IMG/VR virus record: IMGVR_UViG_2529292910_000010
Span: 1-41,736 of that record
Length of the DNA: 41,736 bases
Origin: a virus
Lineage: Duplodnaviria; Heunggongvirae; Uroviricota; Caudoviricetes
Direction: 5' to 3' (one strand)
Shown here piece by piece: positions 24,889-25,964 of the stretch. A program made the translations under genes and the position numbers. Under the pieces are notes generated by a model, which made no database searches, had not been told where the DNA came from, and saw nothing but the letters and a program-made list of their open reading frames with translations. Position 1 is the stretch's first letter; every line of letters begins with the position of its first letter.

Positions 24889-25250
24889 TTTAAGTTGTGT
24901 GGCGAAGTAACCACTCTTAACAGATTAAGATAAAATTTGCGGACCGCGGTAATTTTTTTTGCTAAATTAAAGCCATATAAAAAATAAGATCCATAAGAAA
25001 TTATTAGTATACTAAGGTTTAACATGGCTACTATTGCGCAATCAAAGAAACAAAAAAACTTAAAATTGGTTTTTACACCAGCAGTTCTGGGACTATCCGC
25101 AGCCATTCAGTTGCTAAGCAAGCAATTGAAAATCTGTATAATACTTGCGTAACCGTTACGAATAATCATTTTGATACCATCTATAGAAATAAAAAGTTAA
25201 AAATAGCTTTTATAAATAAAGATACAAAAGCTAAATATTTCTTCGGCTAC

Positions 25251-25964
25251 ATGTCATGCTCACGAGAAGAGTATCTCCTTCCTTATATTGGTGATGAACA
25301 CTGGAATGAGCACAACATACCACTAGATGATAAAAAATACATAGTCGAAAGAACCTATTTTTTATATTATTACGATAGTGATATTTTAATATTAACTCAA
25401 AATCATCTTGGGCCGAAAGAATCGGATTTAGCTTATCTGCTTTACAGCCAGAGTGGTAATCCTGGAAATAACTTTTCATTCCAAGCCATCTGGAAAAAAG
25501 AGAGCGTCAAAGAGCTACTTGAAACAGGAAGTACTTTGAGAAGTTGTGATATTGTCCTGACTGCTCCCAGGAACTTTGATGCAACAAATTACCAGCTAAA
25601 TAGTTCATTTTCTAAGGAACTGGTAAATATGATGGTAGGGCTGGGTGGAACACGTCTCAAGTTAAATCTAAGGGGACGTGCATCAGGGAGAGTAAAAGTC
25701 AAAGGTTATTTATCAGATCTCGTTAAGGATGGTATTAAAGAACTCCTTGAAAAAATGCCGGGAATTGTAAAAAAAGCGGCAGTAACACAGCCCAAAAATA
25801 CCGTTGAACAAAGTCTTCTTGATCAGGTACTCATTTCAGAAAAAAACATATATACCGTTAATGGTTATGGCACTGATAGTGATGTTCTGCAAGCCATGAT
25901 TTCTGCTAAAATTGATAACAATGAATACCTTAAGCAATACGATATCAGCAAAAAGAAGGTATAG
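25251..25964 (+). CDS. hypothetical soluble protein, gene A of the AT-rich cassette (frame is open upstream to 25023; possible true start ATG 25024 with a frameshift at an A7 run)
   Basis: 237 aa from ATG 25251; upstream in-frame region reads protein-like but has no ATG/GTG/TTG; ATG at 25024 with a good SD (aagg) is in the adjacent frame and would join via one base at A7 run 25052-25058. Confidence 0.6.
   Translation: MSCSREEYLLPYIGDEHWNEHNIPLDDKKYIVERTYFLYYYDSDILILTQNHLGPKESDLAYLLYSQSGNPGNNFSFQAIWKKESVKELLETGSTLRSCDIVLTAPRNFDATNYQLNSSFSKELVNMMVGLGGTRLKLNLRGRASGRVKVKGYLSDLVKDGIKELLEKMPGIVKKAAVTQPKNTVEQSLLDQVLISEKNIYTVNGYGTDSDVLQAMISAKIDNNEYLKQYDISKKKV

What the first reader, a model, noticed from the sequence alone, without database searches (positions are those of the whole stretch)
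25023..25251. Cassette gene A probably starts at ATG 25024 but changes frame at an A7 run
The gene A frame is open and protein-like for 76 codons upstream of ATG 25251 but has no start codon there, while ATG 25024 (with a good SD) is in the adjacent frame and that frame stops at 25147. One extra A in the run at 25052-25058 would join them into a ~313-aa protein. This is the same homopolymer pattern seen in the ykgJ-like gene, so it is either a real inactivating or slippage-prone mutation or a homopolymer sequencing error.
Basis: seen in the sequence. Interest (0 to 1): 0.4.

Follow-up and report, generated by a model that had tools for sequence, protein, structure and literature searches.

The report
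One-base poly-A contraction breaks prophage gene
A prophage gene of 313 codons, whose predicted protein folds like the lambda phage-exclusion protein RexA, is split in this sequence because a run of eight A's reads as seven; this is an ordinary homopolymer miscount or null mutation, not a designed frameshift.

Summary
ATG 25024 follows a good Shine-Dalgarno sequence and opens a 42-codon frame containing A7 (25052-25058). That frame stops at 25150-25152, not 25147. The frame of ATG 25251 is open back to 25023 with no ATG/GTG/TTG. One more A gives a 313-aa protein.

Intact relatives have A8 and that 313-aa gene, annotated DUF6731. These include phage cdtI, 19 of 25 complete E. coli genomes, 13 of 15 IMG/VR contigs and 2 of 2 metagenome contigs. 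Forty-five homologues, down to 35% identity, are mostly 307-321 aa and keep the N-terminus.

A7 is the derived minority state, and it arises in two ways:
- Artefact: all six A7 complete genomes belong to one pig-ETEC series that appears to be the nanopore-only project. Two sister assemblies of that series differ only by 1-nt indels.
- Real allele: independent short-contig assemblies in at least two lineages share A7.

For this window the call is insecure. A separate assembly of reads that appear to come from the same strain gives A8. I lean towards artefact (about 0.5) over a true null allele (about 0.3). Programmed recoding is unsupported.

The parts
25013..25018 (+). Shine-Dalgarno-like TAAGGT, 6 nt upstream of ATG 25024
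   Evidence: Read directly. The same sequence precedes the annotated 313-aa gene in L002, L003 and L005.
25024..25964 (+). Gene A as a whole: a DUF6731 gene with a RexA-like predicted fold (shown for the family). It is 313 codons when the tract is A8; here it is interrupted by a 1-nt contraction.
   Evidence: Intact 942-nt CDS in K_EC180, EC416 and phage cdtI. Pfam PF20505 scores 41.4 bits on the repaired protein. PHROG 7651 covers residues 2-312. Homologues are mostly 307-321 aa.
25024..25152 (+). 42-codon frame opened by the true start codon. It is correct only up to codon 11 and then out of frame until TAA 25150-25152.
   Evidence: No family hit. The exact 42-aa product is on record on about 20 contigs; all ten that were fetched carry A7.
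25052..25058 (+). A7 homopolymer, the site of the frame change. It is A8 in intact genes (codons CAA AAA AAA CTT = Q K K L).
   Evidence: Alignment of the window with L001-L003. Census of run lengths.
25023..25250 (+). 76 open codons upstream of ATG 25251 in the gene A frame. From about 25059 onward they encode residues 13-76 of the real protein.
   Evidence: Translation matches the intact protein from KLKIGFYTSSSG onward. Conserved motif and invariant F17. Strand 8-20, helix 30-42 and strands 49-81 in the AlphaFold model of the 87%-identical homologue.
25251..25964 (+). The 237-codon remainder that ORF finders report as the gene. It lacks about 80 N-terminal positions of the family model, and no Shine-Dalgarno sequence precedes it.
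   Evidence: the Pfam match begins at model position 80. Upstream sequence read.
25968..26411 (+). Gene B: a 147-aa membrane protein with four long helices, always paired with gene A.
   Evidence: Hydropathy. AlphaFold model with pLDDT 84. Pairing kept in clusters where gene A is 62% and 44% identical. PHROG 8552.

Best explanation
Gene A is a single 313-codon gene that starts at ATG 25024. Its N-terminal Lys-rich stretch is encoded by an A8 tract, and in this window the tract reads A7. Translation from the real start therefore leaves the frame at codon 12 and stops after 42 codons. The remaining 301 codons sit in the -1 frame with no usable start. That is shown.

The contraction is not a designed feature. 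It is the derived, minority state of a slippage-prone homopolymer. That is shown from the census and the family.

For this particular window I think the missing A is most likely a homopolymer miscount in the source assembly. On that reading the strain carries an intact gene. That step is inferred. The source appears to be the E. coli DEC6E draft, and its reads show flow-chemistry-type homopolymer noise.

The intact protein is predicted to fold like lambda RexA, and gene B resembles RexB in size and topology. I infer that the pair works as a RexAB-type abortive-infection or exclusion module expressed from the prophage.
For: Intact state is A8 with 313 aa:
- Phage cdtI orf54 and K_EC180 and EC416.
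- 19 of 25 complete E. coli genomes, 13 of 15 IMG/VR loci and 2 of 2 metagenome contigs.

The N-terminus belongs to the protein:
- 45 homologues, mostly 307-321 aa, nearly all covering 95-100% of the 313-aa form.
- Conserved KKxKKxRIGFFTSS motif.
- Pfam and PHROG coverage.
- The modelled N-terminal strands and helix are part of the fold.

Artefact route exists:
- All six A7 complete genomes belong to one pig-ETEC series (6 of 12 there, 0 of 13 elsewhere).
- A paper on such a collection describes nanopore reads, Trycycler and medaka polishing, with no short-read polishing step found in its text (PMC10151945). I matched the genomes to that project by strain naming and origin only.
- Sister assemblies ETEC6334 and ETEC6333 differ over 40 kb by 0 substitutions and five 1-nt indels. 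One of them lies inside a tRNA-Leu gene.

This window specifically:
- Its 237-aa product equals EHV73655.1 of E. coli DEC6E.
- The Logan assembly of run SRR094971 carries the window-specific SNP with 0 mismatches over 2151 nt, and reads A8.
- That contig also differs from the window at two other short homopolymers.
- The window's ykgJ-like gene has two further frame-breaking 1-nt indels at or beside short runs, in a form found in no other record.

RexA-like fold:
Against: - A7 is also a genuine heritable allele. Independent short-contig assemblies in at least two lineages share A7 together with identical flanking indel states. Three more contigs differ from their best A8 reference by this indel alone. 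A real null allele in this strain is therefore quite possible.
- Outside the cassette and the ykgJ-like gene, the window shows only one homopolymer difference from its nearest relatives in about 36 kb. The assembly is not generally noisy.
- The Logan contig that reads A8 is itself error-prone, and I could not verify that the run comes from the same strain or which platform produced it.
- The RexAB assignment rests on a predicted fold and on gene pairing. Sequence profiles do not link A to RexA or B to RexB, and no phenotype is known.
Confidence: 0.5

Rival explanations
1. The missing A is real. Replication slippage contracted A8 to A7 in this strain's prophage, giving a null allele (pseudogene) of gene A. 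It was either tolerated because the gene is dispensable or selected because an abortive-infection module is costly.
For: - A7 recurs on at least four or five SNP backgrounds.
- It is shared, with identical flanking indels, by independent assemblies within lineages: L017/L024/L025 and L023/L027/L029/L030.
- It is the only indel against the best A8 reference in L022, L026 and L031.
- 2 of 31 sequences in the unbiased sample without the ETEC series carry A7.
- The window is otherwise clean at long homopolymers.
Against: The only independent assembly of reads that appear to be from this strain gives A8. The window has other unique frame-breaking 1-nt indels in the ykgJ-like gene, which suggests consensus errors in the source.
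Confidence: 0.32
2. The tract is a phase-variation switch. Cultures are mixtures of A8 (ON) and A7 (OFF) cells, so different assemblies of one strain report different lengths. Lysogen populations would thereby hedge between carrying and silencing the exclusion module.
For: - The tract sits at codons 10-12, the classic place for an ON/OFF tract.
- A7 is recurrent.
- The window and L032 disagree for what seems to be one strain.
- A related cluster has an even longer A9 tract at the same codons.
Against: - No A9 or A6 alleles were seen in about 60 sequences.
- The A9 tract of the sister cluster is invariant in 9 of 9 loci.
- The 44%-identity cluster has no tract.
- A7 is rare in unbiased accurate data.
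- The disagreements within a strain or clone are all in error-prone data.
- From general knowledge, A8 is short for an efficient slippage switch in a mismatch-repair-proficient E. coli.
Confidence: 0.1
3. The A7 allele is still expressed by recoding. Either ribosomes shift -1 on A_AAA_AAC (25052-25059 in the frame of ATG 25024), or RNA polymerase stutters on the run. Either way some full-length protein is made.
For: In the zero frame the run reads CA A AAA AAC, a canonical X XXY YYZ heptamer. A -1 shift lands exactly in the gene A frame.
Against: - No stimulator is present. The 72 nt downstream fold no better than shuffles (z -1.6), with only a 5-bp stem nearby. There is no Shine-Dalgarno-like sequence upstream.
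- The two-frame layout is not conserved; the family norm is one uninterrupted ORF.
- The 42-aa zero-frame product matches no family.
- From general knowledge, in E. coli A_AAA_AAC is much less shifty than A_AAA_AAG, and runs of 7 give little transcriptional slippage.
Confidence: 0.04
4. The real gene is the 237-codon ORF from ATG 25251, and the upstream open stretch is incidental.
For: Public gene calls list the 237-aa product on 381 plus 162 contigs.
Against: - All 10 of 10 loci fetched for that product have A8 and an intact in-frame 313-codon ORF.
- Homologues keep the N-terminus.
- The Pfam match of the short form starts at model position 80 of 295.
- There is no Shine-Dalgarno sequence before 25251.
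- The open stretch has a chance probability of 0.0025.
Confidence: 0.02

Closest known systems
Bacteriophage lambda RexA/RexB exclusion system (PDB 8TWQ; PMC11077077)
   Same: - Two adjacent prophage genes: a soluble protein of about 300 aa followed by a four-helix membrane protein of about 145 aa.
- Its other fold neighbours are RdgC, CHL4/CENP-N and IML3. These are the ones reported for RexA itself.
   Different: - No detectable sequence similarity: hhalign probability 0.5% for A against RexA and none for B against RexB. No RexA or RexB Pfam hit.
- The cassette lies next to the Q antiterminator gene and converges on it. It is not in the immunity region behind cI.
- No exclusion phenotype is known.
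RexAB-type pairs recognised by fold: P. putida PP_5643/5644 (PMC12894663) and Sbash gp30/gp31 (PMC6426596)
   Same: - The gene B model's second-best viral match is a 165-aa Sbash protein (Foldseek probability 1.0, E 0.058).
   Different: - Those systems have demonstrated defence phenotypes; this one has none.
- I did not verify that the Sbash match is gp31.
- The E-value of that match is not significant.
Homopolymer-length errors of flow-based (454, Ion Torrent) and nanopore sequencing
   Same: - A single-base length difference confined to a run of 7-8 identical bases.
- It is concentrated in one series of assemblies that appears to be nanopore-only.
- A second assembly of what seem to be the same strain's reads contradicts it.
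   Different: The same A7 state is also found as an inherited allele in assemblies that look accurate. Error is therefore not the only source.
Simple-sequence contingency (phase-variable) loci, e.g. poly-G/poly-A tracts early in Haemophilus, Neisseria or Campylobacter surface genes
   Same: A mononucleotide tract within the first dozen codons whose +/-1 changes switch the gene off and on. The A7 state has arisen repeatedly.
   Different: The tract is short (8). Only one off-length was seen. The sister cluster's A9 is invariant. No within-culture variation has been shown in accurate data.
Programmed -1 frameshifting of E. coli dnaX and IS elements (A AAA AAG plus stimulators)
   Same: A slippery A-rich heptamer in the right frame.
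   Different: There is no stimulatory structure or Shine-Dalgarno element. The last base is C rather than G. The arrangement is absent from most family members.

Membership tests
Pfam PF20505 (DUF6731) / PHROG 7651 | Profile match above the curated threshold over the full length | tested here: met
   The repaired 313-aa form scores 41.4 bits (cut-off 27), with residues 34-260 on model positions 30-247 of 295. The 237-aa form scores 30.6 bits and starts at model position 80. PHROG 7651 gives E 1e-151 with residues 2-312 on positions 1-314 of 315.
Pfam PF20505 (DUF6731) / PHROG 7651 | Same length and colinear N-terminus as other members | tested here: met
   45 homologues, mostly 307-321 aa, nearly all cover 95-100% of the 313-aa form. 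N-terminal motif conserved and F17 invariant.
RexAB-type phage exclusion system | Component A has the RexA fold | tested here: met
   [not shown]
RexAB-type phage exclusion system | Component A is a sequence homologue of RexA (Pfam RexA/DUF4747) | tested here: not met
   hhalign probability 0.5%, E 0.11. No such Pfam hit even at E 10. No PDB sequence hit.
RexAB-type phage exclusion system | Adjacent small inner-membrane partner with four transmembrane helices | tested here: met
   Gene B is 147 aa (RexB is 143-144 aa). Four hydrophobic segments. Four long helices in the model, pLDDT 84. The pairing is conserved in diverged clusters.
RexAB-type phage exclusion system | Partner is homologous to RexB | tested here: inconclusive
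   BLASTP E 0.012 over a colinear N-terminal stretch, but hhalign finds nothing. Foldseek against viral models hits a 165-aa Sbash protein with probability 1.0 and E 0.058. Identity of that hit with gp31 is unverified.
RexAB-type phage exclusion system | Expressed with the repressor from the immunity region | tested here: not met
   The cassette lies 23 nt from the end of the Q antiterminator gene and converges on it. The repressor region is about 8 kb away in related prophages.
RexAB-type phage exclusion system | Excludes superinfecting phage by membrane depolarisation; A binds DNA as a dimer | not testable with these tools
   This needs plaque assays, membrane-potential dyes and EMSA with the cloned A8 cassette.
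Phase-variable contingency locus | Repeat tract in the 5' coding region whose length changes toggle the frame | tested here: met
   The tract lies at codons 10-12. A8 is in frame and A7 is out of frame.
Phase-variable contingency locus | Frequent length variation among and within closely related isolates in accurate data | tested here: inconclusive
   - A7 occurs in at least two lineages of short-contig assemblies, but in only 2 of 31 sequences of the unbiased sample without the ETEC series.
- No A9 or A6 was seen.
- Differences within a clone were seen only in error-prone data.
- The sister cluster's A9 is invariant in 9 of 9 loci.
Programmed -1 ribosomal frameshift site | Slippery heptamer X XXY YYZ in the zero frame | tested here: met
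   A AAA AAC at 25053-25059 in the frame of ATG 25024.
Programmed -1 ribosomal frameshift site | Stimulatory downstream structure or upstream Shine-Dalgarno-like element | tested here: not met
   Fold of 25059-25130: -17.5 kcal/mol, z -1.62, and 11 of 200 shuffles fold as well. The only nearby stem has 5 bp. There is no GGAG-like sequence in the 20 nt upstream.
Programmed -1 ribosomal frameshift site | Two-frame arrangement conserved among homologues | tested here: not met
   Most relatives have one uninterrupted ORF.

The most novel reading that the evidence does not exclude
The A8 tract at codons 10-12 is a working ON/OFF switch that lets lysogen populations toggle a previously unrecognised RexAB-type abortive-infection module. 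That module is DUF6731 plus its four-helix partner, carried in a variable cargo slot next to the Q gene of lambdoid prophages. The A7 in this window would then be the OFF phase rather than an error or a dead gene.
Probability: 0.08. Interest if true: 0.5.

Novelty: already known. Interest (0 to 1): 0.2.

Why it matters
The frameshift mainly matters for annotation. The gene should be treated as a 313-codon DUF6731 gene with a suspect homopolymer. It should not be read as a 237-aa protein or as a recoding site. Public gene calls often give the short form even where the long frame is intact.

The more useful by-product concerns function. DUF6731 has no described function. Its predicted fold matches RexA, it always sits beside a RexB-sized four-helix membrane protein, and in related prophages the same slot holds a pair that NCBI names as anti-phage proteins. 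This makes the pair a concrete, cheaply testable candidate for a RexAB-type exclusion system in E. coli prophages, including phage cdtI. Natural A7 alleles could serve as ready-made null controls.

Tried and rejected
- **237-aa product as a proxy for A7.** I first took the 381 contigs carrying the exact 237-aa product as a count of A7 alleles. I rejected this because all 10 of 10 fetched loci have A8, and the caller had simply chosen the internal ATG.
- **Complete genomes as evidence of a common real A7 allele (6 of 25).** Rejected. All six lie in one series that appears to be nanopore-only, and sister assemblies of that series differ only by 1-nt indels.
- **General noisiness of the window.** The indel census against the nearest prophages found only one homopolymer difference in about 36 kb outside the cassette and the ykgJ-like gene. 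It neither proves nor excludes an error at this site.
- **PADLOC and NCBIfam.** No hit for A or B.
- **Sequence links to RexA/RexB.** hhalign of A against RexA and of B against RexB, and an A-family profile against PDB sequences, gave nothing significant.
- **Species-representative genomes.** 0 matches to the tract pattern.
- **Literature.** No paper mentions DUF6731. The DEC collection genome announcement (PMC3370608) is not held, so the sequencing platform of the source strain could not be read.
- **AFDB fold library.** Unavailable.
- **More contigs from run SRR094971.** The AraC-like protein is too common to surface that run. The window's ykgJ-like product is not on record.
- **Promoter and terminator scan of the cassette.** It gave no more sites than shuffles.

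Full report
**1. What is in the sequence**

The region reads as the first-stage reader described.
- ATG 25024 is preceded by TAAGGT at 25013-25018, with 6 nt between AAGG and the ATG.
- It opens the frame MATIAQSKKQKNLKLVF..., which runs 42 codons to TAA 25150-25152.
- A7 lies at 25052-25058.
- The frame of ATG 25251 is open back to 25023, just after TAA 25020-25022. It holds no ATG, GTG or TTG in those 76 codons.
- At 35% G+C, 76 open codons are expected with probability 0.0025, and 35 of 20,000 shuffles stayed open.
- One added A joins the two frames into 313 codons.

**2. The intact gene**

Megablast against complete E. coli genomes finds the whole two-gene cassette (24850-26450) in 25 genomes at 98.9-99.6% identity.
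- In K_EC180 and EC416 the tract is A8. RefSeq annotates a 942-nt 'DUF6731 family protein', WP_015987625.1, starting at the equivalent of ATG 25024.
- Phage cdtI has the same gene as orf54, followed by orf53, which is gene B.
- Pfam PF20505 matches the repaired protein at 41.4 bits, residues 34-260 on model positions 30-247. It matches the 237-aa form only from model position 80.
- PHROG 7651 covers residues 2-312.
- A search of the large protein collection returns 45 homologues. Identity to the query is 98-38% by BLASTP and falls to 35% in the global alignment. They are mostly 307-321 aa, and nearly all cover 95-100% of the 313-aa form.
- The N-terminus carries a conserved KKxKKxRIGFFTSS motif with an invariant Phe17.
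- An AlphaFold model of the 87%-identical homologue P0033 (pLDDT 82.8) places strand 8-20, helix 30-42 and strands 49-81 inside the fold.

The gene therefore starts at 25024.

**3. How common is A7, and is it real?**

A 71-nt probe across the tract gave 6 A7 and 19 A8 among the 25 complete genomes.

All six A7 genomes belong to one pig-ETEC series, where 6 of 12 genomes are A7 against 0 of 13 elsewhere.
- A paper on a collection of this kind describes nanopore reads, Trycycler and medaka polishing. I found no short-read polishing step in its text (PMC10151945). I matched the genomes to that project by strain naming and origin only.
- Two sister assemblies of the series, ETEC6334 (A7) and ETEC6333 (A8), differ over 40 kb by no substitutions and five 1-nt indels. 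Four are in runs of six or more, and one of those lies in a tRNA-Leu gene.
- The A7 calls of this series are therefore noise.

Other samples were as follows.
- IMG/VR gave 13 A8 and 2 A7.
- Metagenome contigs gave 2 A8.
- Species-representative genomes gave no match.
- Leaving out the ETEC series, the unbiased tally is 29 A8 and 2 A7.

A7 is nevertheless also a real allele. The exact 42-aa product of the short frame is on record on about 20 contigs, and the ten loci fetched all carry A7.
- Independent assemblies within lineages share A7 together with identical flanking indel states. These are L017/L024/L025 and L023/L027/L029/L030.
- L022, L026 and L031 differ from their best A8 reference by this one indel over 4-5 kb.
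- A7 sits on at least four or five SNP backgrounds.
- No A9 or A6 was seen anywhere.

One trap needs recording. The 237-aa product is listed on 381 contigs, and on 162 more for a second haplotype. All ten loci fetched for it have A8 and an intact 313-codon frame. Those are start-choice errors by the gene caller, not A7 alleles.

**4. This window in particular**

- The window's 237-aa product carries a private substitution (A178T, from the SNP at 25560). It is identical to EHV73655.1 of E. coli DEC6E.
- The only other record of that product is a 2151-nt Logan contig from run SRR094971. It matches the window with no substitutions but three homopolymer differences: A8 instead of A7 at the tract, A4 for A5 at 25191 and T3 for T4 at 26108. 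That pattern is typical of flow-based reads.
- I could not read the genome announcement to confirm the platform.
- Elsewhere the window is mostly clean. There is one homopolymer difference (C8 against C7 at 24504, intergenic) in about 36 kb aligned to its nearest prophages.
- The ykgJ-like gene at 385-717 is an exception. It has two compensating 1-nt indels (T4 for T5 at 429 and an extra C beside an A4 run at 590) and a C10 tract against C7. This form occurs in no other record.

Weighing the low natural frequency of A7, the conflicting second assembly and the other suspicious indels, I put about 0.5 on an assembly artefact. I put about 0.3 on a true null allele and about 0.1 on a mixed, phase-varying culture.

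**5. Is it a designed frameshift?**

In the zero frame the run reads A_AAA_AAC, and a -1 slip would land in the gene frame. Three observations argue against a programmed site.
- The downstream 72 nt fold no better than shuffles (z -1.6).
- There is no upstream Shine-Dalgarno-like element.
- The two-frame layout is the exception in the family.

The tract itself follows from AAA lysine codons in a Lys-rich N-terminus. The 87% cluster has A7-CCC-A6. The 62% cluster has A9, invariant in 9 of 9 loci. The 44% cluster has no tract. I give programmed recoding about 0.04.

**6. What the gene probably does**

- Gene B is 147 aa, has four hydrophobic segments and models as four long helices. RexB is 143-144 aa with four TM helices.
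- The A+B pairing, convergent on the Q antiterminator gene, is kept where A is only 62% and 44% identical.
- Against membership: sequence profiles do not connect A to RexA or B to RexB, and the pair is not in the immunity region.
- In the closest prophage (O104:H4 type) the same slot holds a different two-gene cassette. It matches the NCBIfam equivalogs DS1_1 and DS1_2, named 'anti-phage protein'. Other prophages have further occupants or none. The slot behaves like a defence-cargo hotspot.
- I infer a RexAB-type exclusion module. Nothing here tests the phenotype.

**7. Verdict**

The feature is an ordinary 1-nt homopolymer contraction in a known, annotated gene family. It is either an assembly error or a natural null allele, and it is not a recoding signal. 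Interest in the frameshift itself is low. The RexA-like nature of DUF6731 and its cassette is the part worth a bench test.

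Noticed in passing
window 385-717 (runs at 426-429, 572-581, 586-591): The ykgJ-like gene has its middle 53 codons out of frame. Relative to the intact 109-aa YkgJ-family gene of strain 23CRST047 it shows T4 for T5 at 429, an extra C at 590 and a C10 tract where the relative has C7. The true middle segment is readable in ORF 378-671. The exact 110-aa product is in no public record. These are either consensus errors or a decayed gene.
   Followed up: partly
[not shown]
   Followed up: partly
window 24743-26434; L004 9446-12104; L060-L069: The gap between the Q antiterminator gene and the 65-aa/AraC-like genes is a swap site. 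It holds the DUF6731 pair here. In O104:H4-type prophages it holds the NCBIfam DS1_1/DS1_2 'anti-phage' pair. In others it holds a 205-aa, a 140-aa or an opposite-strand 148-aa gene, or nothing.
   Followed up: partly
L033-L042 (public gene calls for the 237-aa product): The large protein collection lists the 237-aa form on 381 contigs, and on 162 more for a second haplotype. Every locus checked has A8 and an intact 313-codon frame. The gene caller systematically picks the internal ATG for this AT-rich gene.
   Followed up: yes
L070 vs L071 (ETEC6334 vs ETEC6333, 40 kb around the cassette): The two assemblies of one clone, from a series that appears to be nanopore-only, differ by five 1-nt indels and no substitutions. 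The indels alter a reverse-transcriptase gene next to a SLATT-domain gene, gpJ (annotated as frameshifted), and the length of a tRNA-Leu gene.
   Followed up: yes
L044 172-1104 and L045; IMG/VR loci L051-L057: The sister cluster with 62% identity carries an A9 tract at the same codons (CAA AAA AAA ATG). It is invariant in all nine loci seen, despite being longer than the A8 tract here.
   Followed up: partly
window 24504-24511: A C8 run lies in the intergenic region between the AraC-like gene and the 65-aa gene. The O104:H4-type prophage, 99.7% identical over this stretch, has C7.
   Followed up: no
window 24870-24895, minus strand: A G+C-rich hairpin followed by a T run on the minus strand lies just beyond the cassette. 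The first 41 bases of the 24850-26450 query match many lambdoid phages exactly, and phage Ayreon annotates the matching stretch as a terminator. This suggests that the late promoter and its first terminator lie between the cassette and the 65-aa gene, so the cassette would sit between Q and its target promoter. The hairpin loop also carries window-specific substitutions (24873-24882).
   Followed up: no
window 25968-26411 vs L001/L002 2693-3062: RefSeq annotates gene B as 122 aa in some genomes and 147 aa in others. The DNA is identical in that region, so this is another start-choice inconsistency.
   Followed up: no
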